In this document: positions 1,968 to 20,184 of the stretch, in pieces
Layout of the letters: the number at the start of each line of letters is the position of its first letter
How positions within the stretch are numbered: position 1 is the first letter of the stretch
NCBI GenBank assembly: GCA_017553285.1
Contig: JAFZMK010000085.1
Span: 1-61,470, forward strand
Direction: 5' to 3'
Source: Rhodocyclaceae bacterium
GTDB taxonomy: Bacteria > Pseudomonadota > Gammaproteobacteria > Burkholderiales > Rhodocyclaceae
DNA: 61,470 nt
Translations under genes and position numbers: made by a program
The notes under the pieces: model-generated
What the model was told of the DNA's origin: nothing
What the model saw: only the letters and a program-made list of their open reading frames with translations
The model's database searches: none

Positions 1968-1973
1968 GGGCGG

Positions 1974-2741: not shown

Positions 2742-2765
2742 GATGGTTTGCGTGCAGGAAAGTGA

Positions 2766-3965: not shown

Positions 3966-4066
3966 AGGCGCGCGTGCGCGGAGTTTTTACATTTCACGGC
4001 GTCACTGGCGTATACTTGGCGGCGATTGTGCGCATCGTGCGCGCGCCCCGTTTCCGGAGAAAACGC

Positions 4067-4873
4067 ATGAACCAAGATGTGTGTGTAGCCGCCGTTCAGA
4101 TGGTTTCCAGTATGCAAGTGCAGGCCAATTGCGCCTGCGCGGAACAACTGGTGGCCAAAGCGGTGCAGGCAGGGGCGCAGATGGTGGCGTTGCCGGAATT
4201 TTTCCCGCTCATCGGAATGCGCGAAGACGGCGCACTGCAACACGCCGAGGCAGACGGAGAAGGGCCGTTGCAAGATTTCCTGCGCCAGTTGGCGGCGCGT
4301 CACGGCATCTGGCTGGTCGGCGGCACCGTGCCGCTGCGTGGTGAATCGCAAGGCAAGGTGCGCAACAGCCTGCTGGTCTTCAACCCGCAGGGCGAGCGCG
4401 TGCTGCGCTACGACAAGGTGCACCTGTTCAGCCTGGAACGCGGCAGCGAGCGCTATGACGAATCGGCGGTGATGGAGCCGGGGCGCGACGTGTGCTCGTT
4501 TCACACGCCGTTTGGGCACGTGGGCGTGGCGCTGTGTTATGACCTGCGCTTTCCCGAACTGTTCCGCAAGTTTTCCGGCGTGGACATGATTGTCTTGCCG
4601 GCGGCCTTCACCTACGGCACCGGGCAGGCGCACTGGGAAGTGTTGCTGCGTGCGCGCGCCATCGAAAACCAGTGCTACGTCATCGCCAGCGCGCAGGGCG
4701 GGCGCCACGAAAGCGGGCGCAACACCTGGGGGCAAAGCATGATTGTCGACCCCTGGGGCGAAATTCTCGCGCAGCAGGCGCAGGGCGAAGGCGTGGTGGT
4801 TGCCAAATGCACCACCCTGCGCTTGCAGCAGGTGCGCGCCATGCTGCCCGCGCTCAGTCACCGTGTATTCTGA
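4067..4873 (+). CDS. Carbon-nitrogen hydrolase (nitrilase superfamily) protein
   Basis: ATG at 4067. E-K-C triad context: [26 protein letters not shown]. Also [12 protein letters not shown]. Confidence 0.85.
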
Positions 4874-4932
4874 AAACGCCCCCAGAAGGCGGATCATTCC
4901 CGCGCGCTGTTTCTTCTTTTGACCCCGTCACC

Positions 4933-6411: not shown

Positions 6412-6939
6412 ATGAAAGCAGCGGGCGCGTTGCGCGACGAAATTTGCTATCCCTTCCTCTACGAGACTTCCTGGCTGTGCGATTACGAGGTCGCCACCGA
6501 TGAGCTATGCGGGCTGATTGGCTCGGCGCTGTCGCTGCTGCCGCCCGAAATGGCGGACATCGCCGCTGATCTCGACCGCCTGCAACCGCTGGCGTTTCAC
6601 CTCAATGGCTCATTGCGCGGGCGGCTGGCGGTGACTGATGCCGACGTGGACTGGCTGCGCGCCCGGCTGGAACACTACCGCGAAGAAGTGCGCGATGCAC
6701 ACGCGGGCTTTATCCTGCCGCGTGGCGCGCTGCCCGTGCCGTATTTGTATCAGGCCTGTTCGGCGGCGAAACGCGCGGTGCGGCTGATGGTGCGCATCGA
6801 GGCGGAAGGGCGGGAAATTCCCCCCGTGCTGCCGCGTTTGTGCAATCTGATGGGCAATTTTTTCTTTGTATTGGCGCGCGTCATCAACCGGCGGCGCGGC
6901 GAGGCGGAAATTCCCTTTGTCAGCAAAAGTTACGGCTGA
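6412..6939 (+). CDS. Cob_adeno_trans (PduO-type ATP:cob(I)alamin adenosyltransferase)-like protein without the canonical N-terminal motif
   Basis: AGGAGA lies upstream of the ATG. EVATDELCGLIGSA...LQPLAFHLNGSL...FILPRG resembles the helical-bundle core of PduO-type adenosyltransferases. I see no TKxGDxGxT motif, and only 24 nt separate it from tldD. Confidence 0.5.
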   Translation: MKAAGALRDEICYPFLYETSWLCDYEVATDELCGLIGSALSLLPPEMADIAADLDRLQPLAFHLNGSLRGRLAVTDADVDWLRARLEHYREEVRDAHAGFILPRGALPVPYLYQACSAAKRAVRLMVRIEAEGREIPPVLPRLCNLMGNFFFVLARVINRRRGEAEIPFVSKSYG

Positions 6940-7646
6940 ACCAGCCACGGCCTGTCGGCGCGGCGCGCGCGCCAGTGCATCTGCCCGCTGGTCAAATCGT
7001 ATTCGGCAAGCGTAAACAGCGCGCCGCCAATTTCAGCGGCTTCGTAGCCCAGCAGGTGAAGACGGCGCACCGTGAGCGCCAGCGGCGGCGCATCAGCAAG
7101 CAAGGCAAAACGTTCCGCCACCTGCGCGCACGGCCAGGCGTCGGCATAGAGGCCGACGGTGACGTGCGGCACATACGCGCCTTGCGGGTGCTGCGCATCG
7201 TGTGTGTCCGTATGCAGGCAATGGCGCAGCGAGGCAAATTGCTGCGCGGCACCGTGCACGGTAAGAAACGGGGCGGCGGCGAAACTTTCCAGCGCGCCGA
7301 TTTCGATGCGGAAAACGTCCAGATTGCGCGCGCGCAGCGCGGCAAGCTGCGCGGCGATGTGCTGCGCGTCGATTTCATCGGGCGCGGGCGCGGAAGATTG
7401 TGCGGCAAACCCGCACACCGCCAGCGTAATGTGCGGCTGGCGCTGATAGCGGGAAAGCAGCAAACCATCGAGCGCCTGTTGCGCCGCCTGCACGCGCGCG
7501 CGCACTTCGGGGGTATCCACGTCGATTGCCCACAGCAGGTAATGCGTGCGCCCCCGCCGCCATTCGGGAAAATCGCGGCGTTCGTTGCGTAGCGTGTGTG
7601 TGGCGGCGAGAAACTGCTGGCGCAGCGCGGCGGGCGTTGGCGGCAT
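6930..7646 (-). CDS. 2H phosphoesterase superfamily protein (2'-5' RNA ligase / cyclic phosphodiesterase-like)
   Basis: Two HxT/Sx motifs at the expected spacing: QPHITLAVCGF and VPHVTVGLYA. Its ATG (7644-7646) shares one base with the TGA (7646-7648) of the upstream GGDEF gene. Confidence 0.75.
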   Translation of the reverse strand: MPPTPAALRQQFLAATHTLRNERRDFPEWRRGRTHYLLWAIDVDTPEVRARVQAAQQALDGLLLSRYQRQPHITLAVCGFAAQSSAPAPDEIDAQHIAAQLAALRARNLDVFRIEIGALESFAAAPFLTVHGAAQQFASLRHCLHTDTHDAQHPQGAYVPHVTVGLYADAWPCAQVAERFALLADAPPLALTVRRLHLLGYEAAEIGGALFTLAEYDLTSGQMHWRARRADRPWLVQP

Positions 7647-10075
7647 CAGGCAGGCTGCGCCGGTGCGCCGCTTGGTGCGGCGGCAGGCTGCGGGCGGGGC
7701 GCGGTTTGCTCGGCTTCAAAGCGGGCGAGCACGCGGTTGCGCCCGGCGTGTTTGGCGCGGTAGAGCATGGCATCGGCTTGCTCAATCAGCTCGTTGACGT
7801 TGCCGTTCGCGCTGCCCGTAGCATCGCCAGAGACGATGCCGATGCTGACGGTGATGTGTTCGTAGGGCGATTTTTCGTGCGGGAGCTGGAGCGCCTCCAC
7901 CGCCGCGCGGATGCGTTCGCCAAAAAGGGCGGCCTGAGGATGTTCGCACTGGTACCAGAACAGGATGAATTCTTCGCCGCCATAGCGACCACAGAAATCA
8001 TAGGGGCGCTGCCCGGCGTGCTTGCCGATGACTTTGCCGACGGCAGCCAGCACCGCATCGCCCGCCGCGTGCCCGTAGTGGTCGTTATAGTTTTTGAACC
8101 AGTCGACATCAATCATCGCGGCGGTGAGCTGATTGCGCGCGGCAGGCAGCAGCGGGCGGATGCTGGCAAGGTAGTTGTCCAGCCCCTGCCGGTTCGCCAG
8201 GCCGGTGAGCGCATCTTGCTGGGCGAGGAATTTGAGTTTTTCCTGCTTGACGAAGCTATCCAGCCGCCGGTGGTCCTGAATGGCGCTAAGCGCCGCGCCC
8301 ATGCAATTGACGAGGACAAACGAAATCAGCAGGTGCGACAGGTTGCCGGTGGTGGGCAGGAAGAGGATGCGGGGGACGAGATAGGCGAGCGTAATCGTCC
8401 AGCCGACCACGCACGCCACGCCCCAGTGCTGCGAGCCGACCATGTAGCTCTGGAAGAGCAGGAGCATCAGCAGCTCGTAGGGAATGTCGACCTGATGCTG
8501 GAAGGAGAGCCAGCCGGCATAGCAGATAATCAGCCCGTAAGCGAGGATGAACAGCGGCAAGATGCGCCAGGACAGGCGTTGCGCCCATTCGTGGCGCGTC
8601 AGCGCGATGCCCGCGCACAGCAGCGGCGTGAGGAAAAAGGTGTGCGAGCTAAGCAGCAAGCGGCTGGCGGGGGCATCGGGCAGCACGAAGTTGGCAGCAA
8701 TCAGCGTGAGATTGATGATCATGGTGATAATCAACATGCTGACCAGTTGCGGCTGCTCGATGATGCCGCGCAAGCTGGCAAAACGGGCGCGGTCTTCGCG
8801 GGTGATGGCGGTCTCGCGCGGCGTGAGGGCGGCGATGTAGGCACCCGGCGCAAAGGGCTTGGCACCGGCAGGCACGGCGGATTGCGCATCCTTGCCCGCG
8901 CCGCATTCGTGCGTGCACACCAGATTGCGCCCGCTTTCCTTGGCCAGATAGAGGGCGCGGTCGGCGTTGTCCAGCAGCGTGTGGCGGTCTTCGGCGCAGG
9001 TTGGCACGTGGCTGGTAATGCCGACGCTGACGGTCACCTTGCCGTGGTGGCTGTCTGCGTGTTCGATGGCGGTGGCTTCGACGGCATGGCGCAGCCCTTC
9101 GCCCAGGGCGAGGAGGTCTTGCTGGGGATGGAACCACACGGCAATGAATTCTTCGCCGCCATAGCGGGCGACGTAATCGGGCTTGGGCGAGGCGTGGCGG
9201 GCGATGGCGTGCGCGACGGTGGTGAGCACGTTGTCGCCAGCGGCGTGCCCGTAGCGGTCGTTATAGCGTTTGAAATGGTCGACATCAATCATCGCCACGG
9301 CCAGCGAGGCCTGTTCGCGCGTGGCCTGACGAACCAGGCGCGCGAGCAGCGCCTGCAAGTCGCGGCGGTTGGGCAGCCCGGTAAGCGGGTCGTGCCGGCT
9401 TTGTTCCAGAAAGGTGTTGTTGATGAGAAAGTGGTGGCGGGTGACACGCTCCAGCGTGTGGCTGGAAAAGAGGCTTACCATCATCGCCAGCGCGATATAG
9501 ATGGTGTGCATCCGGCACAGCGTGGCATCGGGCTGGTAGAGCCATTCGGGCACCGCCAGCAAAATGGCGGAAAGCAGGCAAGGCCACACGGCATAGCGCC
9601 ACGGAATGCCGCCGACCAGCGGCGTAAAGAGGATGAGCAGCAGCAAAAGCTGGTAGGAGTGCAAATAGCCGTAATGGCCGGAAACCCACTGGCTGGAACA
9701 CAACATGCAGACCGCCAGCATGGAATACAGGGCGGTGAACATGGGCATTCGCGGCGTAAAACGCGGCAGGAAGGACGCCACCATCCACGCCAGCCAGCAC
9801 AGGAAAAAGAGGGGAATACGGCTGATGATGGGGAAGGTGGGGACGTGTGCGGGCAGGTGGCGCAGGTCTGCCAGACAGAGGAAAAAGCCGGCGTACAGGG
9901 TAATGCCCAGTGCGTAGCGGGTCAGCTTGCGGTCGCGCTCGACGAGGTGAAGCAGGTACTGGTCTTCCAGTTCCGGGTTTTTGAAGCGCAAATTCCACCA
10001 CGACTCGACGGGCGCGAGCCGGGAAGACTGGCTGGGAAGACGCCATTGCACGGCGTCTGTGCTGGGGGCGTCCAT
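7646..10075 (-). CDS. Membrane diguanylate cyclase, duplicated architecture 6TM-GGDEF-6TM-GGDEF (paralog A)
   Basis: 809 aa. RYGGEEF is encoded at 9146-9160 (GGEEF, aa 306-310) and 7967-7981 (aa 699-703). Both domains keep IDVDxFKxYNDxYGHAAGD and AKxxGRN. Six hydrophobic helices precede each domain. Confidence 0.9.
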   Translation of the reverse strand: MDAPSTDAVQWRLPSQSSRLAPVESWWNLRFKNPELEDQYLLHLVERDRKLTRYALGITLYAGFFLCLADLRHLPAHVPTFPIISRIPLFFLCWLAWMVASFLPRFTPRMPMFTALYSMLAVCMLCSSQWVSGHYGYLHSYQLLLLLILFTPLVGGIPWRYAVWPCLLSAILLAVPEWLYQPDATLCRMHTIYIALAMMVSLFSSHTLERVTRHHFLINNTFLEQSRHDPLTGLPNRRDLQALLARLVRQATREQASLAVAMIDVDHFKRYNDRYGHAAGDNVLTTVAHAIARHASPKPDYVARYGGEEFIAVWFHPQQDLLALGEGLRHAVEATAIEHADSHHGKVTVSVGITSHVPTCAEDRHTLLDNADRALYLAKESGRNLVCTHECGAGKDAQSAVPAGAKPFAPGAYIAALTPRETAITREDRARFASLRGIIEQPQLVSMLIITMIINLTLIAANFVLPDAPASRLLLSSHTFFLTPLLCAGIALTRHEWAQRLSWRILPLFILAYGLIICYAGWLSFQHQVDIPYELLMLLLFQSYMVGSQHWGVACVVGWTITLAYLVPRILFLPTTGNLSHLLISFVLVNCMGAALSAIQDHRRLDSFVKQEKLKFLAQQDALTGLANRQGLDNYLASIRPLLPAARNQLTAAMIDVDWFKNYNDHYGHAAGDAVLAAVGKVIGKHAGQRPYDFCGRYGGEEFILFWYQCEHPQAALFGERIRAAVEALQLPHEKSPYEHITVSIGIVSGDATGSANGNVNELIEQADAMLYRAKHAGRNRVLARFEAEQTAPRPQPAAAPSGAPAQPA

Positions 10076-10159
10076 TGCGCGGTACGTGACTGTAAAAATA
10101 ATTCTGCCTGCGGGTGTGTGGAGAGACGAACGCGGTGTGTTCGTGGCTGTGATTGTATA

Positions 10160-12637
10160 TCAGGCAGGCTGCGCCGGCGTGCAGTTTTGCCCAGCGGCGC
10201 TGGCGCAGTCTGCGGCGGCATCGGGCGCGCTGGTGCCGGGGGTGTCTGTGTCGGCGCGGAAGGTAACGCGGTTGCGCCCGGCGACTTTGGCTTGATAGAG
10301 CATCTGGTCGGCCAGTTCAATCAGCGCGCGGATGCTCTTCATCGGCTCGGTGGAAGAGAGCGCGCCCTGCATGATGCCGATGCTGACGGTAATGCGCCCG
10401 TGGGGACTTTTTTCGTGCGGGATGTTGAGCGCTTCGACAGCGGTGCGGATGCGCTCGCCCGAGACGGCGGCGTGCGTCGAATCGCACTGGCACCAGCACA
10501 GGATGAATTCTTCGCCGCCATAGCGACCACAGAAATCGTAGGGACGGCGTCCGGCAAACTGGCCGATGGCTTTGCCGACGGCAGCCAGCACCACATCGCC
10601 GGCGGCGTGCCCGTAGTGGTCGTTGTACGCCTTGAAGTGGTCGACATCAATCATCGCCACGGTGAGCACGTGCGGTTTGGAGAAAGCGAGCGAGCAAATG
10701 CCGGCGAGGTAATTTTCCATGCCCTGGCGGTTCGCCAGCCCGGTGAGCGCGTCTTGCAGGGCGAGGGTTTTGAGTTTTTCTTGCTTGACGAAGCTATCCA
10801 GCCGCAGGCGGTCTTGCTTCAGCCCGATGATGATGCCCCAGATGTTGATGAGCAGGAAGGGCATCAGGGCGAACATCAGTTCTTCGTCCGGCAGGTAGTA
10901 GAAGCGAATGGCGAGATAGACGAGGGTAAACAGCCAGCTATTGAGGCAGGCGGTGAGCCACTGCTGGGTGCCCACCGTGTAGTTCAGGAAGACGGTGAGG
11001 ATGAGCAGTTCGTAGGGCATATCGACCTGCTGCTGGAAGGCGCGCCAGGCAATCAGGCACAGCGACATGCCGTAGAAAAAGATGAACAGGGGCGTGAGAC
11101 GGCGCGAGCGCCGCTGCGCCCATTCGTAGCGCGTAAATTCCGCGCCCACGCACAGCAGCGGGATGATGAAAAACGCCTGCGCGGCAGCCTGCAACTGGCT
11201 GGCGGGCGCGGCGGGCAGGGCGAAATTGGCGCAAATCAGCACGAAGTGGGTCAGCAAGGTGATGGCAATCATGCTGCGCAGTTGGGGGCGCTCCAGCGTG
11301 CCGCGCCGGGCGTTCCAGCGCGCGCGGTCTTCGCGGGTGATTTCGGCCTCGGCAAGGAAGCCGACGGAGTAGGTGACGGGCGCGGCGGGCTGGATGTCCG
11401 GGGCGGTTTCGGCGGCTTCATCCTGGGCGTTGGCGTGCGCGCTCAGGCAAACCCGGTTGCGCCCGCTGGTTTTGGCTTGATAGAGGGCAGCGTCGGTGCT
11501 GCGCAGCAGATTGTCGGCATCGTCTTGCGGCGTGGGCACACAGCAGGTGATGCCGACGCTGACGGTGAGTTTGCCGTTGTGTTCGCTGTGTTCATGGTCG
11601 ATATTGGCGGCCTGCACCGCGCGGCGCAGCCCTTCGCCCAGCGTTTGCGCATCGGCGTAGGGACGGAACCAGACGGCGACAAATTCTTCACCGCCATAGC
11701 GGGCGACGAAGTTGGGCTGTTGCGCGCACTGGCGGGCGATGGCGTGGGCGACGGCGCTCAGCGCGCTATCGCCGGCGGCGTGACCGTAGCGGTCGTTATA
11801 TTTCTTGAAATGGTCGACATCGATGATGGCGAATGCCAGCGGTGCCTGTTCGCGCTGCGCCTGACGAATCAGGCGCGGCAGCAGGGCATCGAGTTCGCGG
11901 CGGTTGGGCAGGCCGGTGAGCGGGTCGTGCCGGCTTTGTTCCAGAAAGAGGTTGCTGAGCAGAAAGTGCTGGCGGCTGATGCGTTCATGGACGTAGCCGG
12001 AAAACAGCGCGCTCATGGCCGCCAGCAGGATGTAGATGCTGTGCAGGGCGCGCAAGGTGCCGTCCGGCTGGTAGAGCCATTCGGGGATGAGCAGCAGCAT
12101 GGCGGAGAGCAGGCAGGGGAAAATGGCGAAACGCCACGGAATGCCGCCGACAAACGGCGAGACCAGCGGCACGAACAACAGCATCTGATAGGGGTGCAGT
12201 TCGCCGTGATAGCCGCAAACCCACTGGTTGGCACACAGCACGGCGGCGGCGGCGGCGGAAAACAGGGCGGTGGCGTGCGGCAGGCGCGCGCGAAAGCGCG
12301 CTGCAAAGGTAAGCGTCATCCAGACCGCCCAGCCAGCAGACAGCAAGAGGACGGGCACGAAAGTGAGGAAGGTCGCCTCTTCAAACAGGTGATGGTCCGA
12401 GAAGAGCAGGAAGAAGGCGGTAATCAGGGCGGTAGTTTGCGCGGCACGGCTGAAGGTGAGTTCGTGCTCGGCGATATGCAGCAGGTATTGCTGTTCGCGT
12501 TCGGCGTCGCAAAAGCGCAGGTTACAGCGCTGTTGCGATGCGTCGGGCTGCTGGGGCGGATGGGCAGCAGCGCCGTTGTGCGGGGAGGCTGCTGGTGTGG
12601 GCGCGGTGCTCATTGCGGGGGGGGGGGGGTTGAACAT
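10160..12637 (-). CDS. Membrane diguanylate cyclase, 6TM-GGDEF-6TM-GGDEF (paralog B)
   Basis: Same architecture (RYGGEEFVAVW and RYGGEEFILCW). Start taken at ATG 12637 (MFNPPPPAMST...). An in-frame alternative ATG lies at 12613. The annotated ORF start at 12979 would overlap paralog C and is rejected. Confidence 0.85.
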   Translation of the reverse strand: MFNPPPPAMSTAPTPAASPHNGAAAHPPQQPDASQQRCNLRFCDAEREQQYLLHIAEHELTFSRAAQTTALITAFFLLFSDHHLFEEATFLTFVPVLLLSAGWAVWMTLTFAARFRARLPHATALFSAAAAAVLCANQWVCGYHGELHPYQMLLFVPLVSPFVGGIPWRFAIFPCLLSAMLLLIPEWLYQPDGTLRALHSIYILLAAMSALFSGYVHERISRQHFLLSNLFLEQSRHDPLTGLPNRRELDALLPRLIRQAQREQAPLAFAIIDVDHFKKYNDRYGHAAGDSALSAVAHAIARQCAQQPNFVARYGGEEFVAVWFRPYADAQTLGEGLRRAVQAANIDHEHSEHNGKLTVSVGITCCVPTPQDDADNLLRSTDAALYQAKTSGRNRVCLSAHANAQDEAAETAPDIQPAAPVTYSVGFLAEAEITREDRARWNARRGTLERPQLRSMIAITLLTHFVLICANFALPAAPASQLQAAAQAFFIIPLLCVGAEFTRYEWAQRRSRRLTPLFIFFYGMSLCLIAWRAFQQQVDMPYELLILTVFLNYTVGTQQWLTACLNSWLFTLVYLAIRFYYLPDEELMFALMPFLLINIWGIIIGLKQDRLRLDSFVKQEKLKTLALQDALTGLANRQGMENYLAGICSLAFSKPHVLTVAMIDVDHFKAYNDHYGHAAGDVVLAAVGKAIGQFAGRRPYDFCGRYGGEEFILCWCQCDSTHAAVSGERIRTAVEALNIPHEKSPHGRITVSIGIMQGALSSTEPMKSIRALIELADQMLYQAKVAGRNRVTFRADTDTPGTSAPDAAADCASAAGQNCTPAQPA
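12617..12629. repeat. Homopolymeric tract: 13 consecutive G (C on the coding strand)
   Basis: Read directly: cattgc-G13-ttgaacat. It lies between the two candidate start codons of paralog B and encodes PPPP if the ATG at 12637 is used. Confidence 0.95.
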
Positions 12638-12699
12638 CCTGGCGTCTGGAAAATTATGCGTTGATGCAGGATTACGAACGGGGCGGTGTTGGTGAAATT

Positions 12700-15129
12700 C
12701 TAGCAGAGTTGGCGCGGGGCTTCGGTGACGTTTTCCACTTCCCACAGCGCGACGCGGTCGCGCCCTTCGGCCTTGGCGCGGTAGAGGGCGCGGTCGGCAT
12801 GGGTAATCAATTGGGCGACAGCGGCAAGATTGGGCAGCGGCGCGTGGGTGCGCGCCAGCCCGATGCTGATGGTCAGTTGCCCGTTGTGGCTGTGGCTGTG
12901 GGGAATGCCCAGTGTGCGGATGGCGGCGCACAGGCGCTCGCCCAGGCGGGCAAGGTCGTCTTCCGGATGTGCGCGCCACAGCAGCAAAAATTCTTCGCCG
13001 CCATAGCGCACCGCCAGCGCGTCGTCTTGCGTGACGTATTGCTGCAAGGTGTGGGCGACGGTGGCGAGCACCGCATCGCCCGCCGCGTGGCCGTAGCAGT
13101 CGTTGTAGTCCTTGAAGTAGTCGATGTCGACCATGGCGACGGTAAAGGCTTGCTCGCCGCGCGCCAGCGCCGGTGCCAGGGCGCTGAGGTGGCGCTCCAG
13201 CGCGGTGCGGTTCGCCAGCCCGGTGAGCGAGTCGTGCAGCGCCAGCGTTTGCAGGCGCTCTTGTTTGCTGAAACTGTCCAGCGCGCGCAAATCCTGCGCC
13301 CGCCCCACCAGCGAGCCGACCACGTTGACCAGAATGAAGGCGCTGGCAGTGCCGGTGAGCGAATCGAAATAGGATGGGGCGTAGTGCAGGTAGAGAAAAA
13401 CGTTCAGCGCCGAGAGCAGCCAGCCCGCCAGCGCTGCCGCAATCCAGGATTGCCCGCCGACGATGTAAATCTGGTAGAGACTGATGAGGATGATTTCATA
13501 GGGCACATAGCCGCCGCGCGACAGCGCGTAGTAGAAGGCGTAGCTGTAACACAGGCCGGGAATGAAGATGACGAAGGGCAGCAGATAGCGCGAACGGCGC
13601 AGCGCCCAGTCTTGCCGCGCCAGATAGAGCGAGACCAGCAACGAGGGGACGATGACGCTCAAAATCAGCGCCACAAAGGGGCGCGAGACCGGTTCGGCAA
13701 GGTTCAGACGGCTGACCAGCGCGGTAAACAGGTTCAGCAGCAGACACAGCACCCCGGCGTTGAAAAGCTGGTGGCGCTCGAAAAGACCGCGTTCGCGCGC
13801 GAAACGGGCGCGTTCTTCGCGCGGCAGCCGTTCGGCGTTGTCGACGAAGCTGGTTTGCGCTTCGCCGCCTTTGCGCAGGCGCGCCGGGCGTGACGGCCAG
13901 TCGACGGCGTCCATGTTGCCGTCTGCCACGCAGTTGCGCCCGGCTTCCTTGGCGCGGTAGAGGGCGTGGTCGGCGGCGGCCAGTACGTCTTCCGTGCGGG
14001 TTTGCGCCGTGGGTGCCAGCCCGATGGCACCGATGCTGATGCTGATCTGCCCTTGCGGGCTGTGCGCGTGCGGCAAGCCCAGACGCGCCACCGCCTGCCG
14101 CAGCCCTTCGCCCAGCGGCAGCGCCTGCGCGCTGTTGTGACGCCAGACGGCGACAAACTCTTCGCCGCCATAGCGGGCGACAAAATCCGGGCGCGGCCAC
14201 GCCTGCTGGCTGATGGCCTGGGCGATGGCAATGAGCACCACGTCGCCGGCGGCGTGCCCGTAGTGGTCGTTGTACGCCTTGAAGTGGTCAACGTCGAACA
14301 TCGCCACGGCAATGCGGCCATCGTCGCGCGCGCATTGTTGCAGCAGTTGCGGCAAGAGCTGGTCGAGCACGCGGCGGTTGGGCAGACCGGTGAGCGCGTC
14401 GTGCCGGCTTTGTTCCAGATAGCGGTTGTTGGTCAGAAAGTGCTGGCGCGAGTGGCGTTCGATGACAAAGGCACCAAAAATGCCGGTGACCGTTGCCATG
14501 GCAAGAAAGCCGATGTGCAGGTTGCGCAGGGCAATATCGGGCTGGTAGTGCCATTCGGGCGCGCCAATCATGATGGCAGCCAGCAGCGTATACGGCGCGC
14601 CCAGCCGCCACGGCAGGCAGCCGGCAAGCGCGGCAAACAGCGGGATGGCGAGCATGGGCTGATAGTGGCGCAGCACGCCGTTTTCCCACGATACACACAG
14701 ACTGAGGGAAAAACAGGCGATGCACAGCAGACCGCTGACCAGCACCAGCCACGGTTGGGCGGTGACGGTGCGGCGACAGCAGCAGGCGTACAGGAACAGC
14801 CCCCAGCAGAAGAGAAACACGGGCAGGCGCAAAAACAGCGCGATGTGCGCCGCGCTGCTGGGCAAGGTGTAGCAATCGGCGATGTGCATCACCACGGCGG
14901 CAACCAGCGTGACCAGGGCGATGTTGCGCGACAGGGCGCGGTCGCGCAGCATCATCTGGGCGAGAAAGCGCTCCTCAAGGTCATCATCCTTGAAGCGCAG
15001 CGACCAGAATGCCTCGGGCTGCGGCACCGGGCTGGCGGCAGCGAATACGGGCGAAGAGGAATCGGCTTGGGCTTCGGACATTTTGCGAATGCGCGCACGC
15101 TGGCAAGGCACGAAGCTGCCATTTTCCAT
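12700..15129 (-). CDS. Membrane diguanylate cyclase, 6TM-GGDEF-6TM-GGDEF (paralog C)
   Basis: 809 aa with RYGGEEFVAVW and RYGGEEFLLLW. Alternative ATG at 15081 (MSEAQADSS...). Confidence 0.85.
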   Translation of the reverse strand: MENGSFVPCQRARIRKMSEAQADSSSPVFAAASPVPQPEAFWSLRFKDDDLEERFLAQMMLRDRALSRNIALVTLVAAVVMHIADCYTLPSSAAHIALFLRLPVFLFCWGLFLYACCCRRTVTAQPWLVLVSGLLCIACFSLSLCVSWENGVLRHYQPMLAIPLFAALAGCLPWRLGAPYTLLAAIMIGAPEWHYQPDIALRNLHIGFLAMATVTGIFGAFVIERHSRQHFLTNNRYLEQSRHDALTGLPNRRVLDQLLPQLLQQCARDDGRIAVAMFDVDHFKAYNDHYGHAAGDVVLIAIAQAISQQAWPRPDFVARYGGEEFVAVWRHNSAQALPLGEGLRQAVARLGLPHAHSPQGQISISIGAIGLAPTAQTRTEDVLAAADHALYRAKEAGRNCVADGNMDAVDWPSRPARLRKGGEAQTSFVDNAERLPREERARFARERGLFERHQLFNAGVLCLLLNLFTALVSRLNLAEPVSRPFVALILSVIVPSLLVSLYLARQDWALRRSRYLLPFVIFIPGLCYSYAFYYALSRGGYVPYEIILISLYQIYIVGGQSWIAAALAGWLLSALNVFLYLHYAPSYFDSLTGTASAFILVNVVGSLVGRAQDLRALDSFSKQERLQTLALHDSLTGLANRTALERHLSALAPALARGEQAFTVAMVDIDYFKDYNDCYGHAAGDAVLATVAHTLQQYVTQDDALAVRYGGEEFLLLWRAHPEDDLARLGERLCAAIRTLGIPHSHSHNGQLTISIGLARTHAPLPNLAAVAQLITHADRALYRAKAEGRDRVALWEVENVTEAPRQLC

Positions 15130-15185
15130 GCTCTGGGCAGGAAAAGAAACTATTGCGTGAAGAAGGTGGCGCGCAGCGCGCGCTT

Positions 15186-17630
15186 TCAGGCGTTTTGCGC
15201 CGGCTGCGCGTCCGCGCCCGGTTCCTGCAAGCCTTGCGGCAGCAGCGATTCGCTTTGCAGCACCAGACGATTGCGCCCCGTGGCCTTGGCGCGGTAGAGG
15301 GCGGTGTCGGCGCGGCGAATCATGCGGTCGAGATTTTTCATGCTGTTGTCCGCCGAGATGGTGCCGTGGGCGATGCCGATGCTCACCGTCACCCGCCCGT
15401 GGCGGCTTTTTTCGTGCGGAATGTTCAGTTCGCGCACGCCCTGACAGACGCGCTCGCCCAGCACGCGGGCGTCTTTTTCGCGGATGTGGTACCAGATGAG
15501 CAGGAATTCTTCGCCGCCATAGCGGGCGGCAAAGTCATACGGGCGCAGGCGCTGTTCGGACAATTCCTGCCCGATGGCGGTGAGCACCGCATCGCCCTGG
15601 GCGTGGCCGTAGTAGTCGTTATAGGCTTTGAAGTGGTCGATATCGACCATGGCGACGGCGACAATGCGCTCGGACGAATCGAGCAGCGGCAGCAGGGTGC
15701 GGAAATAATTTTCCAGCCCCTGGCGGTTCGCCAGCCCGGTGAGCGCATCTTGCAGGGCGAGCACTTCGAGTTTTTCGCTCTTCAGGAAGGCGTCAATATC
15801 GGAGCGGTCGTGCGTGAAGCTGACAAACGCGCCCAGCGCGTTGAGGATGAGGAAGGGCAACACGAGCTGGAGGGGGGCAATGTCGGTATACGCCACCCAG
15901 ATGCCAATGCACAGCAGGGATAAGGTCACGCCGGTGACGGTGACGCTCTTCCAGGAATGACCGCCGATGATGTAGGCCTCAAAGGCGATGAACAGCATGA
16001 TTTCAAACGGCGCGCGCTCGTGGGGAAAATCCAGATGCTGCGAAAAGGCGCTGTAGAAGGCATAGCAGAAGGCACCGCCGCAAAGCAGCAAGGTGGCAGG
16101 CACGCAATAGCGGGTGTTGCGCTGCGCCCAGGGCAGGTAGCACAAAAAGAAGGCGGCAGCCTTGGCGGGCAGCACGATGGCAAGCTGCATCAGCACGACA
16201 AGGGAAGCCAGCGCAGCAGGCAGGTAGAAATGATGCGCCAGCAGCAGGAAAAAGCTGGTCACGGCACAGGCGAGCACCAGCAGGCTGAGGCGGTGCCATT
16301 CGTGCAGCCCCCGGATGCGGCTCCAGCGGCGCGCGTCTTCGCGGGTGACGGGAATCAGGTTGAAGAACGGTTCGTTTTGGCGTTCGCGTTCGCCTTCGCC
16401 CGCCGCTTCGCTGCCCGGGGCGGGTTGTTCGTCGGTTGCCAGCGGGGCGAGCAGGCTGGCGATGTTGTCGGCCTTCACGCAGTTACGCCCGGCATTTTTG
16501 GCGCGATAGAGGGCGCGGTCGGCACTGGCCAGCAGCGCCGGAGGGGTGGTGCGGGCGGTGGGATACTGGCTGGTAATGCCCACGCTGATGCTGACCGTGC
16601 CGTGACCGCTGCGCTCGTGCACGATGTTGGTGGCCTGCACGGCGCGGCGCAGCCCTTCGCCCAGCGTGGAGGCATCCTGCGTGGGATTGAACCAGATGGC
16701 GGCAAATTCTTCGCCGCCATAGCGGGCGACAAAATCGGGCGGATGCTCGGCCTGTTTGGCAATGGCCTCGGCGACGCGGGTGAGCACCATGTCGCCGGCG
16801 GCGTGCCCGTAGTGGTCGTTGTAATCCTTGAAGTAATCGACATCAATCATCGCCGCAGTGAGGCTGACTTTCTCACGCGCGGCCTGACGCAGGATGCGCG
16901 GCAGGAAAAAATCCAGGTCGCGGCGGTTGGGCAGCCCGGTGAGCGGGTCGTGCCGGCTTTGTTCGTAAAAATTCAGACTGATGAGAAACCACTGGCGCGA
17001 TTGTTTTTCCCGGATATAACGGGCGCACAGGCTGAAGAAGGTCGTGCACAGAATGTAGGCAAGGTGCAGGTTGCGCACGTCCGCATCGCCCTGATAGCGC
17101 CATTCCATCGCCACCAGCGCCAGCGCCGTGCCCAGCGTGGCGAGGGTGCAATAGCGCCAGGTCAAACAGCCCAGAAAACACGAAAACAGCAGCACCAGCA
17201 AGACGATTTGATAGGGCACATAGACCTGATGCAGCCAGCCTACCCACAGCGGCGAAACCAGCGCCAGATTGGCACCGAGCAAAAAGGCAGCGAGCAGCGG
17301 TTGCGTCCAGCGCGTGACTTTTCCCGTAAAACACACGCGCGTCCAGCCGATGCCGCAACACACAAACAGCGGCACGCGAACGAATATCGCCGTCCACGCC
17401 GCCTGCGCGGGCATGATGTAAAAATCGGCAACGCTCAGCAGCAATACCGCCAGCAGCACGGCGAGGATGTTGTTGCGCGCGCTGGTGCGCTCTTGCAGCA
17501 ACATCTGGGTGATGAAGCGCGTCTCCAGCACGGCATCCAGAAAGCACAGGTTCCAGCGCAGGGGCGCATTCGGCGTGAGTGCCTTGCGCGACTCGAAGGA
17601 AGGGGGCGTTTGCGCTTGTTGTTGACTCAT
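15186..17630 (-). CDS. Membrane diguanylate cyclase, 6TM-GGDEF-6TM-GGDEF (paralog D)
   Basis: RYGGEEFAAIW and RYGGEEFLLIW. ATG at 17630 (MSQQQAQ...). The ORF-track start at 17657 is a TTG. Confidence 0.85.
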   Translation of the reverse strand: MSQQQAQTPPSFESRKALTPNAPLRWNLCFLDAVLETRFITQMLLQERTSARNNILAVLLAVLLLSVADFYIMPAQAAWTAIFVRVPLFVCCGIGWTRVCFTGKVTRWTQPLLAAFLLGANLALVSPLWVGWLHQVYVPYQIVLLVLLFSCFLGCLTWRYCTLATLGTALALVAMEWRYQGDADVRNLHLAYILCTTFFSLCARYIREKQSRQWFLISLNFYEQSRHDPLTGLPNRRDLDFFLPRILRQAAREKVSLTAAMIDVDYFKDYNDHYGHAAGDMVLTRVAEAIAKQAEHPPDFVARYGGEEFAAIWFNPTQDASTLGEGLRRAVQATNIVHERSGHGTVSISVGITSQYPTARTTPPALLASADRALYRAKNAGRNCVKADNIASLLAPLATDEQPAPGSEAAGEGERERQNEPFFNLIPVTREDARRWSRIRGLHEWHRLSLLVLACAVTSFFLLLAHHFYLPAALASLVVLMQLAIVLPAKAAAFFLCYLPWAQRNTRYCVPATLLLCGGAFCYAFYSAFSQHLDFPHERAPFEIMLFIAFEAYIIGGHSWKSVTVTGVTLSLLCIGIWVAYTDIAPLQLVLPFLILNALGAFVSFTHDRSDIDAFLKSEKLEVLALQDALTGLANRQGLENYFRTLLPLLDSSERIVAVAMVDIDHFKAYNDYYGHAQGDAVLTAIGQELSEQRLRPYDFAARYGGEEFLLIWYHIREKDARVLGERVCQGVRELNIPHEKSRHGRVTVSIGIAHGTISADNSMKNLDRMIRRADTALYRAKATGRNRLVLQSESLLPQGLQEPGADAQPAQNA

Positions 17631-17710
17631 TGAGTGCGTTTGCGTTCTGGAAGGCAAGGCGGCATGGGGCTAGGGTGGGGTGCCGCAGGAACCTGCTATT
17701 GTAACCGAAA

Positions 17711-18388
17711 TTATCTTCCAGAAACAGGCACATCGCCGCTGGCTTCGCCTTCTGGCGCGGCGGCAGGCGGGGGTGCCGGGATGGGTTCGGGCGCGGACGG
17801 CTCGGTCATGCCCGTCAGCCCGGCGGTGAGCATGAAACGCATGGCTTCTTCCATGCCCATGTCCAGCGGCTCGACACGCGAACGCGGCACCGAAAGCGCA
17901 TAGCCGCCGACCATGTAACTCATCGGAAAATACACCAGCACGTTGCCTTCGCCGCCAAAGGGCGCGGCAATGGCGCGCAAGTCGTCGCGCGTGACCAGCC
18001 CGATGGCCTGCACGTCCTGCCCGAAACGCACGCAGACGACTTGCTGGTAGGTTTTCTTTTTCATCGGCGAAAAATATTCCATGAAGTCGCGCAGCGCCGG
18101 GTAAATCAGCTTGACCAGCGGCAGGCGGTGGAGCAGCCGGTCAATGCGCGAGAAGAGCACCTGCACCACGTAGGTGTGCATCAACATGCCGATGATGAAA
18201 CACGCCCCCAGCGCCAGCACCACGCCTACGCCCGGGGGCAGGTGCGTGCCGGCAGGCAGCACCGAGGCGAGCATTTCGCTGAGCCATTGCTCGGTGCCGG
18301 CAATCGCCCAGTACAGCAGGTAGAAAGTCAGCAGCAGCGGGACGACCGTAATCAGACCGGTGAGAATGTTGCGCGTGATGATGCCCAT
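17711..18388 (-). CDS. DUF502 family membrane protein
   Basis: ATG at 18388. MGIITRNILTGLITVVPLLLTFYLLYW...RLPLVKLIYPALRD...VYFPMSYMVGGY is typical of DUF502. Confidence 0.75.
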   Translation of the reverse strand: MGIITRNILTGLITVVPLLLTFYLLYWAIAGTEQWLSEMLASVLPAGTHLPPGVGVVLALGACFIIGMLMHTYVVQVLFSRIDRLLHRLPLVKLIYPALRDFMEYFSPMKKKTYQQVVCVRFGQDVQAIGLVTRDDLRAIAAPFGGEGNVLVYFPMSYMVGGYALSVPRSRVEPLDMGMEEAMRFMLTAGLTGMTEPSAPEPIPAPPPAAAPEGEASGDVPVSGR

Positions 18389-18556
18389 GGCGGTTTGTGC
18401 AAAAAACGTAAAAGAATGTTGATGGTAATCGCATCGGCGGCTTCTTGCATGTTTTTTCCGCCGCGCGCGCAAGGCGCACAATGCGCGCTGTGCATTGTTG
18501 TTTTAGAATACCGCCGCCGCGCCCGCGCGGTATGCGTCTTTCAGGAGCTGTTCTAC

Positions 18557-19498
18557 ATGACTTTGACCGACCTTCGCTATCTGGTCGCGCTCGCCCGTGA
18601 ATGCCATTTCGGACGCGCCGCCGAAGCCTGCCACGTCAGCCAGCCGACGCTGTCGGTGGCCATCAAGAAACTGGAAGACGAACTGGGCGTGTCGCTGTTT
18701 GAACGCGGCGCGAGCGAAGTGCGCATCACCACTGCCGGTGCCTTGGTGGTGGAACAGGCCGCGCGTGTGCTGGCCGATGCCGCGCGCATTCCCGAGCTTG
18801 CGCAAAGCGGGCGCGACCCGCTGCTGGGGCCGCTGCGTGTGGGCGTCATCTACACCATTGGTCCGTATCTGCTGCCCAAGCTGATTCCGCTGGTTCATGC
18901 GCGCGCGCCCGAAATGCCGCTGATTATTCAGGAAAACTACACCACCAATCTGGTCGCCGCGCTCAAGCAAGGTGATCTGGACGTGCTGATTTTGTCCTTG
19001 CCGCTGGAAGAATCCGGCGTCGTCACCCAGGCGCTCTATGACGAACCATTCCGCGTGCTGCTGCCCGCCGGGCATGAATGGACAAAACAAAGAGCCATCG
19101 ACCCGCTGGCGCTGGTGAAAGAAAACATGCTGCTGCTGGGCGTGGGCAACTGCTTTCGCGACCAGGTGCTGCAAGCCTGCCCGCCGTTGCAGAACAACAG
19201 CGCGCTGCAACGCACCTTCGAGGGCAGCTCGCTGGAGACCATCCGCCACATGGTCGCCACCGGGCTGGGCATTACCGTGCTGCCCAGCACCGCTGCCGAC
19301 AACCTGCCCGAACACAACCCGCTGGTGGCGGTGCGCCCGTTCGCCGGGGAAGCGCCCTCGCGGCGTATCGTGCTGGCATGGCGGGTGACCTACCCGCGCG
19401 GCGGTGCCATCGACGTGCTGCGCGAAGCCATTTTCGACACCGATTTGCCCGGCGTGCAGTTTGTGGGCACCAAGCCGCCGCAGCAATCGCACGCATAG
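18557..19498 (+). CDS. oxyR: LysR-family peroxide-sensing regulator OxyR
   Basis: ATG at 18557. HTH region LRYLVALARECHFGRAAEACHVSQPTLS. GNCFRDQVLQAC gives two Cys with the same 9-residue spacing as E. coli OxyR C199/C208. dps lies immediately downstream. Confidence 0.85.
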   Translation: MTLTDLRYLVALARECHFGRAAEACHVSQPTLSVAIKKLEDELGVSLFERGASEVRITTAGALVVEQAARVLADAARIPELAQSGRDPLLGPLRVGVIYTIGPYLLPKLIPLVHARAPEMPLIIQENYTTNLVAALKQGDLDVLILSLPLEESGVVTQALYDEPFRVLLPAGHEWTKQRAIDPLALVKENMLLLGVGNCFRDQVLQACPPLQNNSALQRTFEGSSLETIRHMVATGLGITVLPSTAADNLPEHNPLVAVRPFAGEAPSRRIVLAWRVTYPRGGAIDVLREAIFDTDLPGVQFVGTKPPQQSHA

Positions 19499-19619
19499 TC
19501 TTTTCCAACTGGACGCGCCCCGGAGGGCGGCTCTATCATGATTTGCACGTCCCGCCACGCTTGCGGCGGGGTGACACCAGACCCGTCTCCACACGGAGCA
19601 CAAAACGGAGGAACGCATC

Positions 19620-20090
19620 ATGAAAATCGACATCGGCATCAGCCAGAAAGACCGCAAAGCCATCGCCACCGGACTCTCCCGCCTGCTCGCCGACAGCTAC
19701 ACGCTGTATCTGACCACGCACAATTTTCACTGGAACGTCACCGGCCCGATGTTCAACACGCTGCATTTGATGTTCGAGACGCAGTACAACGAACTGGCGC
19801 TGGCCGTCGACCTGATTGCCGAACGCATCCGTGCGCTGGGTGCGCCCGCGCCGGGCACCTACAGCGAATTTACCAAGCTGGCCTCACTCAAGGAGCCGCC
19901 CGCCGGGCTGAGTGCCGAAGAGATGATTCGCCACCTCGTGCTGGGGCAGGAGACCGTGGTGAAAACCGCGCGCAGCATTTTCCCGCTGGCGGACAAAGCC
20001 AACGATGAGCCGACCGCCGATTTGCTCACCCAGCGGATGCAGCAGCACGAAAAAACCGCCTGGATGCTGCGCAGCCTGCTGGAAGAATAA
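19620..20090 (+). CDS. dps: Dps family DNA-binding ferritin-like protein
   Basis: [38 protein letters not shown]...[11 protein letters not shown] is a Dps ferroxidase signature. GGAGG lies upstream of the ATG. Confidence 0.9.
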
Positions 20091-20122
20091 GGCGCGCGCA
20101 AGGCATCGACCCGCCGCAAAAG

Positions 20123-20160
20123 AAAACGGTGGCTTGCCAGCAATGGCAGCCACCGTTTTT
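20123..20160 (+). terminator. Rho-independent terminator after dps, possibly bidirectional for rppH
   Basis: aaaacggtggcttgcc / ggcagccaccgtttt stem with one bulge and loop agcaat. It is followed by T5 and preceded by an A-rich run. Confidence 0.7.
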
Positions 20161-20184
20161 GTTGGTCGGCGTGTGCGCGGTTTG

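What the first reader, a model, noticed from the sequence alone, without database searches (positions are those of the whole stretch)
7646..17657. Tandem array of four paralogous 12-TM 'double' diguanylate cyclases with a 6TM-GGDEF-6TM-GGDEF topology resembling membrane adenylyl cyclases
SEEN: four consecutive minus-strand genes (7646-10075, 10160-12637, 12700-15129, 15186-17630) each encode about 800 aa. Each is arranged as a short cytoplasmic lead, six hydrophobic helices, a GGDEF domain, a linker (ITREDRARF.. / LPREERARF..), six more helices and a second GGDEF domain. All eight GGDEF domains keep DxFKxYNDxYGHxxGD, RYGGEEF and AKxxGRN, so none looks like a degenerate receptor domain. N-terminal halves resemble each other across paralogs (FLEQSRHDPLTGLPNRR in all four) more than they resemble the C-terminal half of their own protein (LA(L/Q)QDALTGLANRQG). 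The internal duplication therefore predates the four-fold gene amplification. The paralogs are clearly diverged, so this is not an assembly duplicate. ESTABLISHED: GGDEF domains share the class III nucleotidyl cyclase fold and must pair, with one GTP each, to make c-di-GMP. Mammalian membrane adenylyl cyclases are 6TM-C1-6TM-C2 pseudo-heterodimers. INFERENCE: these proteins may be covalently fused, intramolecularly dimerising cyclases whose two 6-TM bundles gate the pairing of the halves. Four copies in a row suggests a family of membrane-signal-specific isoforms. The lead motif before TM1 (LRFKNPELEDQY, LRFCDAEREQQY, LRFKDDDLEERF, LCFLDAVLETRF) reminds me of the F..xxLExxY/F element ahead of 6-TM anchors of class III cyclases. 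That resemblance is from memory and unverified. I could not assign the TM modules to a named MASE-type domain.
Basis: partly seen in the sequence, partly recalled or inferred. Interest (0 to 1): 0.85.

Follow-up and report, generated by a model that had tools for sequence, protein, structure and literature searches.

The report
Four tandem double diguanylate cyclase genes
Four neighbouring genes each encode a membrane enzyme built like two c-di-GMP synthases fused head to tail; this mirrors animal adenylyl cyclases and uses a related membrane domain, but the same fused layout also exists, unstudied, in other bacteria.

Summary
Four minus-strand genes (A 7646-10075, B 10160-12637, C 12700-15129, D 15186-17630) each encode 6TM-GGDEF-6TM-GGDEF. 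All eight GGDEF domains keep GGEEF and the catalytic residues. The paralogs are 40-56% identical. The array sits at the same locus, with 3-4 copies, in related Rhodocyclaceae contigs, one of them a goat-rumen MAG.

New findings:
- The two TM modules are homologous to each other (hhalign 97.4%).
- They belong to a large 6TM signalling-module family with no Pfam model (3754 cluster representatives). The family is coupled to GGDEF, histidine-kinase and class III cyclase outputs.
- The family includes P. aeruginosa ImcA, a solved 6TM-GGDEF homodimer (8WCN). It is detectably related to the TM1 domain of mammalian AC8 and AC5.
- The AlphaFold model is confident (pLDDT 87.6, pTM 0.82), with 6+6 TM helices. 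It aligns along its whole length with AC9, AC8 and AC5.
- The RxxD inhibition site is kept in GGDEF2 (44/70 double proteins) but almost never in GGDEF1 (2/70).

The fused architecture is not unique: 80 proteins were classified this way. I found no paper describing it. The best reading is a single-chain pseudo-dimer of an ImcA-type cyclase. Pairing of the two halves within one chain is inferred, not shown.

The parts
15186..17630 (-). Gene D: 6TM-GGDEF-6TM-GGDEF diguanylate cyclase, 814 aa from the ATG at 17630 (823 aa if the TTG at 17657 is used). TM1 16980-17561, GGDEF1 16473-16973, TM2 15780-16364, GGDEF2 15261-15773.
   Evidence: ORF. Start supported by homologue P0011. Two GGDEF stretches. 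HMM envelopes.
12700..15129 (-). Gene C: same architecture, 809 aa. TM1 14431-15012, GGDEF1 13924-14424, TM2 13264-13839, GGDEF2 12748-13257. GGDEF2 lacks the RxxD I-site.
   Evidence: The I-site was read from the sequence shown.
10160..12637 (-). Gene B: same architecture, 825 aa. The ORF is open upstream to the GTG at 12979, but homologue P0006 starts at the ATG at 12637. TM1 11957-12532, GGDEF1 11447-11950, TM2 10784-11359, GGDEF2 10262-10777.
7646..10075 (-). Gene A: same architecture, 809 aa. TM1 9422-10003, GGDEF1 8915-9415, flexible linker about 8816-8914, TM2 8246-8824, GGDEF2 7727-8239.
   Evidence: AlphaFold model: pLDDT 87.6, pTM 0.82, low confidence at residues 396-420.
6930..7646 (-). 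2H phosphoesterase / LigT-like gene. Its ATG overlaps the stop of gene A by one base (TGATG), so it is probably the last gene of the same operon. This is a context gene with no demonstrated functional link.
   Evidence: PF13563, E 2.6e-20. Junction sequence. Same neighbour in L001-L003.
17711..18481 (-). DUF502 membrane-protein gene immediately upstream of D on the same strand, syntenic in related contigs. The true start is probably internal to this ORF. This is a context gene.
   Evidence: PF04367, E 3.6e-25. Synteny.

Best explanation
Each of the four genes encodes a single-chain pseudo-dimer of an ImcA-type membrane diguanylate cyclase.

Shown:
- Each protein is two complete 6TM-plus-GGDEF units joined by a flexible linker of about 35 residues.
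- Both GGDEF domains are catalytically intact.
- Both are predicted to be cytoplasmic.
- The TM modules belong to the 6TM family that includes ImcA. That family is distantly related to the TM1 domain of animal adenylyl cyclases.

Inferred:
- The two 6TM bundles of one chain pack against each other, as the two ImcA protomers do.
- The long helix that continues from each TM6 into the cytoplasm forms a two-helix stalk.
- The stalk holds GGDEF1 and GGDEF2 so that each binds one GTP and together they make one c-di-GMP.
- A membrane-borne signal (a lipid-like ligand or a partner membrane protein) changes the packing of the bundles. This changes how often the two halves meet productively.
- Product inhibition acts through the single retained RxxD site on GGDEF2.
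- Fusion fixes the partner of each half. This would keep the four co-expressed paralogs from cross-pairing and would let their faster-diverging TM modules respond to different inputs.
For: Domain content: two GGDEF domains per protein, with nothing else named by Pfam or NCBIfam. GGEEF and the other catalytic residues are invariant in both domains across 70 double proteins. A diguanylate cyclase needs two GTP-loaded GGDEF domains (PMC7825114 abstract), so retention of both active sites is what a fused dimer predicts.

Topology: 6+6 TM helices, each TM6 continuing into a helix of 40-44 residues in total (H184-227, H579-618), pLDDT 87.6, pTM 0.82. Positive-inside count is 18 vs 0.

TM-module homology:
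- TM1 vs TM2: 97.4%.
- Window-family TM1 and TM2 vs an independent profile of 93 single-module proteins: 99.7% (E 1.4e-25) and 98.9% (E 3.8e-17).
- That profile vs ImcA: E 1.1e-19. Vs AC8 TM1: E 1.4e-7, hhalign 91.4%.
- Profile A3 vs the PDB: ImcA 2.2e-9, AC8 3.4e-9, AC5 1.9e-4; the next hits have E>1.

Structure: Foldseek's best multi-domain hit is ImcA 8WCN (TM-score normalised to target 0.69-0.74 over about 378 columns). AC9, AC8 and AC5 align over about 900-990 columns. ImcA is a homodimer held by a 2656 A^2 TM interface, and its TM domain is needed for activity (PMC10904736, section 10 and Fig. 5 legend).

Asymmetry: RxxD is present in 44/70 GGDEF2 domains and 2/70 GGDEF1 domains.

Conservation: the array is syntenic with 3-4 copies in related contigs. 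TM modules diverge faster than GGDEF domains.
Against: No coordinates of the model were available, so the relative orientation of GGDEF1 and GGDEF2 was never inspected.

In the ImcA structure the two GGDEF domains make no polar contact and are mobile (PMC10904736, section 10). TM dimerisation alone therefore does not prove productive pairing.

Global TM-scores against the mammalian cyclases are low (0.30-0.39, rmsd 16-19 A).

The window family's own TM profiles do not reach ImcA or AC8 directly.

No ligand, partner or expression data exist. Nothing excludes higher oligomers.
Confidence: 0.65

Rival explanations
1. The halves pair between chains. The protein forms homodimers (24 TM helices, four GGDEF domains) in which GGDEF1 meets GGDEF1' and GGDEF2 meets GGDEF2', or it forms domain-swapped dimers. 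The fusion then serves only to co-localise two differently regulated cyclases.
For: GGDEF1 and GGDEF2 have diverged to 44-52% identity and differ in the I-site. This could reflect two separate enzymes. Dimeric forms of the mammalian cyclase AC5 exist (8sl4, 'Dimeric form of human adenylyl cyclase 5', listed).
Against: A monomer model with pTM 0.82 implies a confidently packed single chain. The single-unit relative ImcA already needs only two units (PMC10904736). The 12-TM colinear alignment with the mammalian cyclases, which are single-chain pseudo-heterodimers, fits intramolecular packing (bioRxiv 10.1101/694877 abstract).
Confidence: 0.2
2. Only one half is the working catalytic unit in vivo. 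The other GGDEF domain acts mainly as a nucleotide-binding regulatory or receptor domain, like the degenerate site of the mammalian cyclases.
For: There is a conserved asymmetry: the RxxD inhibition site is kept almost only in GGDEF2. The mammalian cyclases have one catalytic and one regulatory pocket (my own knowledge of class III cyclases).
Against: All catalytic and substrate-binding residues, including GGEEF, are invariant in both domains over 70 diverse double proteins. A purely regulatory domain would be expected to drift. c-di-GMP synthesis chemically needs two GTP-bound domains (PMC7825114 abstract).
Confidence: 0.1
3. The long ORFs are artefacts: mis-assembled or frameshift-fused neighbouring 6TM-GGDEF genes.
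For: Single 6TM-GGDEF genes of about 400-470 aa are the commoner form of the family.
Against: Full-length homologues at 38-100% identity come from many independent assemblies. The array is syntenic in four other contigs. Eighty proteins were classified as double, including Aquabacterium isolate genomes. The linker is in frame in all four paralogs.
Confidence: 0.01

Closest known systems
ImcA (PA1851) of Pseudomonas aeruginosa, PDB 8WCN
   Same: It has an N-terminal 6TM module of the same sequence family followed by an active GGEEF domain, with a lead motif 'LRFEKELENEF'. It is the best structural match to the model and a significant profile match. It works as a dimer held together by its TM domains (PMC10904736).
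   Different: ImcA is a single unit (461 aa) that homodimerises. The proteins here carry two diverged units in one chain. ImcA is controlled by the CHASE4 protein IsmP and iron; no such partner gene is seen next to this array.
Mammalian membrane adenylyl cyclases (AC8 8BUZ, AC5 8SL3, AC9 6R3Q)
   Same: They share the linear design 6TM-catalytic-6TM-catalytic in one chain, a pseudo-heterodimer. Their TM1 domain is detectably homologous to the TM modules here, including the lead and post-TM6 motifs. The model aligns with them along the whole chain. Their membrane domains are proposed to be receptors (PMC4821796, PMC11606603).
   Different: Their catalytic domains are class III cyclase domains (PF00211) that form one shared active site and make cAMP. 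Here the catalytic domains are GGDEF domains, each with its own GTP site, and the product is c-di-GMP. The AC TM2 domain was not matched. Global structural superposition is poor (TM-score below 0.4).
Single-unit bacterial 6TM class III cyclases and 6TM histidine kinases carrying the same module (e.g. P0190, P0220, P0187, P0216)
   Same: They carry the same 6TM module with the LRFxxxLExxF lead, matched at E about 1e-21 to 1e-23 by the TM profile. Output domains were confirmed by Pfam.
   Different: They have one module and one output domain, so they presumably work as homodimers. Their outputs are cAMP synthesis or phosphotransfer. Rv1625c, the classical 'half' of a mammalian cyclase, was not among the PDB hits.
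MASE-type membrane sensor domains (MASE1-9 of Pfam)
   Same: They are polytopic membrane modules found N-terminal to GGDEF and histidine-kinase outputs.
   Different: No MASE model matches the window proteins at E<=10. MASE8 gives only a sub-threshold hit (E 0.27) on a distant Aquabacterium double protein.

Membership tests
GGDEF diguanylate cyclases (PF00990 / TIGR00254) | GGDEF-domain match above the curated cut-off | tested here: met
   Each protein has two stretches. Whole-protein scores are 278-292 bits against a cut-off of 23.8. TIGR00254 scores 290-292 bits against 37.4.
GGDEF diguanylate cyclases (PF00990 / TIGR00254) | Intact GG(D/E)EF and metal- and GTP-binding residues, i.e. an active enzyme rather than a degenerate receptor | tested here: met
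   All eight domains carry GGEEF. D, K, N, D, R, GGEEF, K and R are invariant in both domains of 70 double proteins.
GGDEF diguanylate cyclases (PF00990 / TIGR00254) | c-di-GMP synthesis from GTP | not testable with these tools
   This needs an enzyme assay or LC-MS.
ImcA-type 6TM-GGDEF cyclases | N-terminal 6TM module homologous to ImcA residues L47-E231 | tested here: met
   The link is transitive. A1 and A2 vs the independent profile S score 99.7% and 98.9%. S vs ImcA scores E 1.1e-19. A3 vs 8wcn_A scores E 2.2e-9. Foldseek TM-score normalised to target is 0.69-0.74. Direct A1 or A2 vs the PDB gives no hit.
ImcA-type 6TM-GGDEF cyclases | One 6TM plus one GGDEF per chain, active as a homodimer | tested here: not met
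   Each chain carries two units. These proteins are therefore a fused variant, not a plain member.
Membrane adenylyl cyclases (class IIIa, mammalian type) | 6TM-catalytic-6TM-catalytic single chain | tested here: met
   Helix and domain order. Colinear alignment over about 900-990 columns with AC9, AC8 and AC5.
Membrane adenylyl cyclases (class IIIa, mammalian type) | Class III cyclase homology domains (PF00211) as catalytic units | tested here: not met
   No Guanylate_cyc hit at E<=1; the catalytic domains are GGDEF. These proteins work like a membrane adenylyl cyclase in layout, but they are not members of that family.
Membrane adenylyl cyclases (class IIIa, mammalian type) | Membrane domain homologous to the AC anchors | tested here: inconclusive
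   For AC8 TM1 the scores are E 3.4e-9 (A3) and 1.4e-7 / 91.4% (S). For AC5 the score is 1.9e-4. These are significant but reached only through broad profiles. AC TM2 and Rv1625c were not matched.
MASE1-9 membrane sensor domains | Match to a MASE profile | tested here: not met
   No MASE hit on the window proteins at E<=10.

The most novel reading that the evidence does not exclude
The 6TM-catalytic-6TM-catalytic pseudo-heterodimer design of animal adenylyl cyclases has an independent bacterial counterpart in c-di-GMP signalling. It is built on the same ancestral 6TM receptor module. It has its own regulatory asymmetry, with the product-inhibition site kept only in the second half. In this Rhodocyclaceae lineage, known mainly from rumen samples, it has expanded into a conserved array of 3-4 isoforms that read different membrane signals. 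Such proteins would be tractable bacterial models for how hexahelical cyclase anchors transmit signals.
Probability: 0.45. Interest if true: 0.75.

Novelty: new variant of a known kind. Interest (0 to 1): 0.6.

Why it matters
Whether the two hexahelical membrane domains of animal adenylyl cyclases are receptors, and how they signal to the catalytic dimer, is still being worked out (PMC4821796, PMC11606603). A bacterial enzyme family with the same chain layout and a related membrane module, but an easily assayed c-di-GMP output, would offer a simple system for testing 6TM-to-catalytic-dimer signalling. It would also allow study of why fusing a homodimer into a pseudo-heterodimer is advantageous.

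For c-di-GMP biology, three points stand out:
- It defines a large 6TM input module that has no Pfam model and is shared by diguanylate cyclases, histidine kinases and class III cyclases.
- It gives ImcA a family context.
- It reveals a conserved asymmetry of the I-site in fused cyclases.

The four-gene array suggests an expanded sensory repertoire in a Rhodocyclaceae lineage known mainly from rumen samples.

Tried and rejected
1. The word-indexed homology search with the TM1 profile returned only two fragments. Hydrophobic words swamp the index. The exhaustive HMMER search was needed instead.
2. Named membrane sensor domains: no MASE or other Pfam or NCBIfam model fits the TM modules.
3. Profiles of the window family alone, run against PDB sequences, gave nothing. 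hhalign of A1 or A2 against the single ImcA or AC8 sequences was insignificant. The link therefore rests on intermediate profiles.
4. The genome-contig scan with protein A mostly picked up GGDEF-only similarity. Only L004 carried the array, and L005-L007 carried single units. It says little about the distribution of double proteins.
5. I tried to decide whether the fused architecture arose once or several times. GGDEF1 domains cluster mostly with other GGDEF1 domains, and GGDEF2 domains with other GGDEF2 domains, in a neighbour-joining analysis. But the window family's GGDEF1 and GGDEF2 are equidistant from those of other double proteins, and identities are saturated at about 40-52%. This is unresolved.
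6. Tandem arrays elsewhere: the three distant double proteins examined (Aquabacterium sp. NJ1, A. soli, one other) are solitary genes.
7. The promoter and terminator scan was uninformative. Promoter-like sites were at chance level, and there were no minus-strand terminators in the three intergenic gaps.
8. There are no tRNA or Rfam features in the window.
9. Literature searches for tandem or double GGDEF, pseudoheterodimer or hexahelical diguanylate cyclases found no description of this architecture.
Full report
**Observation.** The region holds four consecutive minus-strand ORFs of about 810-825 codons: A 7646-10075, B 10160-12637, C 12700-15129 and D 15186-17630. The B ORF is open further upstream, and D has an alternative TTG at 17657. 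Pfam finds exactly two GGDEF stretches in each protein (278-292 bits). It finds no family for the hydrophobic stretches, even at E<=1. NCBIfam gives only generic GGDEF-level matches, and almost no equivalog model reaches its cut-off. All eight domains read GGEEF. No other GGDEF gene lies in the window.

**Paralogy and internal duplication.** Full-length paralogs are 40-56% identical. GGDEF1 domains are 56-69% identical to each other, GGDEF2 domains 44-63%, and GGDEF1 vs GGDEF2 44-52%. TM1 modules are 32-49% identical to each other, TM2 modules 31-48%, and TM1 vs TM2 about 25-30%. A profile-profile comparison of 16 TM1 modules with 14 TM2 modules gives 97.4% probability and E 1.2e-11 over 167 columns. 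The TM modules have diverged faster than the catalytic domains.

**Topology.** I predicted gene A with AlphaFold2, using an alignment of 70 double proteins. The model has mean pLDDT 87.6 and pTM 0.82.
- Module 1 has six helices: 34-73 (lead plus TM1), 80-101, 110-134, 142-153, 159-180 and 184-227.
- Module 2 has a short lead helix (426-439) and six TM helices: 441-464, 469-492, 496/502-526, 534-545, 551-572 and 579-618.
- Each TM6 runs on as a long cytoplasmic helix into its GGDEF domain.
- Only residues 1-19, the inter-unit linker 396-420 and the C-terminal tail are of low confidence.
- Loops are very short.
- K+R counts are 18 on the segments predicted to be inside and 0 on those predicted to be outside.

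An even number of helices in each module, together with the positive-inside pattern, places both GGDEF domains in the cytoplasm.

**What the TM module is.** An exhaustive HMMER search used a profile of 37 TM modules (A3: the window family plus distant double proteins). It found 3754 cluster representatives at E<=1e-3 and 1349 at E<=1e-10. I classified the newly retrieved proteins among the best 150 hits (P0123 onward) with local HMMs:
- 44 are TM-GGDEF-TM-GGDEF.
- 56 are single TM-GGDEF proteins, mostly about 400-470 aa.
- 40 carry the module with another output or are fragments.

Pfam scans of 90 of these proteins gave GGDEF in 59, HATPase_c in 27, HisKA in 24, receiver domains in 19, class III cyclase domains in 2, and a protein kinase, GAF and EAL in one or two each. 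P0190 and P0220 are 465-aa proteins of 6TM plus a class III cyclase domain (E 4e-63 and 5e-58). One source names P0190 'class 3 adenylate cyclase'. So this is a widespread, modular 6TM signalling-input domain with a conserved lead motif (LRFxxxLExxF/Y) and a conserved post-TM6 motif (ExxxRxxFL). It has no Pfam model. MASE8 gives only a sub-threshold hit (E 0.27) on one distant relative and nothing on the window proteins.

**Link to solved structures.** Profile A3, run against all PDB sequences, hits three things:
- 8wcn_A 'Diguanylate cyclase': E 2.2e-9, residues 43-239.
- Bovine adenylyl cyclase 8: E 3.4e-9, residues 162-353, which is its TM1 domain. The alignment covers profile positions 6-193 and includes 'SFKsRDLERLYQRYF' and 'SDRAQRQAFL'.
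- Human adenylyl cyclase 5: E 1.9e-4.

The next hits are unrelated channels at E>1.

8WCN is ImcA (PA1851) of P. aeruginosa. It is a cryo-EM homodimer with a 6TM domain (L47-E231) and a GGDEF domain. The dimer is held by a 2656 A^2 hydrophobic TM interface with a two-fold axis. Its TM domain is required for activity, and the CHASE4 protein IsmP inhibits it in an iron-dependent manner (PMC10904736, section 10 and Fig. 5 legend). That paper does not mention adenylyl cyclases.

**A control on the transitive link.** Profiles of the window family alone find nothing in the PDB. I therefore built an independent profile, S, from 93 single-module proteins that contains no window-family sequence.
- Window-family TM1 vs S: 99.7%, E 1.4e-25, 192 columns.
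- Window-family TM2 vs S: 98.9%, E 3.8e-17.
- S vs ImcA: E 1.1e-19.
- S vs AC8 TM1: E 1.4e-7 (hhalign 91.4%, 181 columns).

S also hits all eight modules in the window (E 1e-12 to 1e-24). Membership in the ImcA-type family is therefore solid. The relation to the mammalian TM1 domain is significant but distant.

**Fold comparison.** Foldseek comparison of the model with the PDB ranks ImcA first among multi-domain hits (E 3e-12 to 6.5e-12, TM-score normalised to target 0.69-0.74, about 378 columns, 26-27% identity). It gives whole-chain alignments of about 900-990 columns with AC9, AC8 and AC5 (E 7e-12 to 2e-9). Global TM-scores for these are only 0.30-0.39, with rmsd 16-19 A. The chains are colinear, domain for domain, but do not superpose as rigid bodies.

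**Both halves are active, but not equivalent.** In the 70-protein alignment the metal-, GTP- and catalysis-related residues are invariant in both GGDEF domains. c-di-GMP synthesis needs two GGDEF domains, each loaded with one GTP (PMC7825114 abstract). The RxxD motif lies five residues upstream of GGEEF and is the primary product-inhibition site of PleD- and WspR-type cyclases (my own knowledge). It is present in 44/70 GGDEF2 domains but only 2/70 GGDEF1 domains. In the window, A, B and D have RPYD in GGDEF2. C lacks it there, and all four GGDEF1 domains lack the arginine.

**Distribution and context.** The close family (38-100% identity, full length) occurs almost only in metagenome assemblies. 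The nearest genome is a Rhodocyclaceae MAG from goat rumen, at 76% identity (L004). The same locus carries three double genes in L001 and L004 and four in L003. In L001 and L003, where both flanks were checked, it lies between a DUF502 gene and a LigT-like 2H phosphoesterase gene, followed by cobalamin adenosyltransferase and TldD. The array is thus old and maintained, and copy number varies (the B-type copy is missing in two contigs).

In the window the intergenic gaps are 56-84 bp, with no terminator-like sites on the coding strand. The stop codon of gene A overlaps the ATG of the LigT-like gene (TGATG). Together these suggest one D-C-B-A-ligT operon; this is an inference.

They include proteins from Aquabacterium isolate genomes, whose TM modules match the window TM1 profile. 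Three distant double proteins I examined are solitary genes. Further proteins with two GGDEF domains, each preceded by 4-6 hydrophobic peaks, come from other phyla, but I did not confirm homology of their TM modules. Whether the fusion arose once or repeatedly could not be resolved.

**Mechanism.** The best-supported reading is a covalently fused pseudo-dimer of an ImcA-type cyclase. The two 6TM bundles of one chain pack like the two ImcA protomers. The two TM6 extensions form a stalk. GGDEF1 and GGDEF2 each bind a GTP and together make c-di-GMP. A membrane-level input modulates the encounter, and the single I-site on GGDEF2 mediates feedback inhibition.

The following are shown: the domain content, intact active sites, topology, family membership, I-site asymmetry and synteny. 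The following are inferred: intramolecular pairing, gating by the TM bundles, isoform-specific signals and the operon. The main rival is inter-chain pairing in higher oligomers, which I cannot exclude without coordinates or biochemistry.

**Comparison with known systems, and novelty.** These proteins are bona fide GGDEF cyclases. They are a fused variant of the ImcA-type 6TM-GGDEF family. They work like, but are not members of, the mammalian membrane adenylyl cyclase family, because the catalytic domains differ. Work on cyclase anchors has linked AC 6TM domains with CqsS-type quorum-sensor kinases, but it does not mention GGDEF proteins (PMC4821796). Full-text searches found no description of a double or pseudo-heterodimeric membrane diguanylate cyclase.

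The architecture is already present in public databases under generic names, so this is a new variant of a known kind rather than a new kind. I score interest at 0.6. The parallel with animal cyclases, now backed by sequence and fold evidence, and the I-site asymmetry would interest specialists and are directly testable. The central mechanistic claim is still an inference.

Noticed in passing
window 6930-7646 (-) and the junction at 7644-7648: A 2H phosphoesterase / LigT-like gene (PF13563) starts with an ATG that overlaps the stop codon of diguanylate cyclase gene A by one base (TGATG). It is the conserved downstream neighbour of the array in L001-L003. A functional link between a cyclic-phosphodiesterase-family enzyme and the cyclases is possible but untested.
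   Followed up: partly
GGDEF2 of A, B and D (RPYD upstream of GGEEF) versus GGDEF1 of all four genes; alignment A5: The RxxD product-inhibition site is retained in the second GGDEF domain of 44/70 double proteins but in the first domain of only 2/70. Gene C lacks it in both domains, so C may escape feedback inhibition.
   Followed up: partly
proteins P0166-P0264 (exhaustive search): The 6TM module with the LRFxxxLExxF lead has no Pfam model, yet it has 3754 cluster representatives. It is combined with GGDEF, HisKA/HATPase (often with a receiver domain), class III cyclase, Ser/Thr kinase and GAF domains. It looks like an undescribed general membrane input domain that includes ImcA.
   Followed up: partly
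window 17711-20859; L001 and L003, roughly 1700-4900: Upstream of the array lies a DUF502 membrane-protein gene on the same strand, followed by an OxyR-like LysR regulator, a Dps/ferritin gene and a NUDIX (RppH-like) gene. All are syntenic in the related contigs. Oxidative-stress and iron genes sit next to relatives of ImcA, a cyclase whose activity is controlled by iron through its partner protein IsmP. This may be coincidence.
   Followed up: no
L001, L004 versus L003 and the window: Copy number of the array differs among close relatives: three genes in L001 and L004, four in L003 and the window. The B-type paralog (56% identical to A) is the one absent, which points to a later A/B duplication or a loss.
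   Followed up: partly
window 1-61470: No tRNA or tmRNA genes, and no Rfam family at gathering threshold, anywhere in the 61-kb window.
   Followed up: yes
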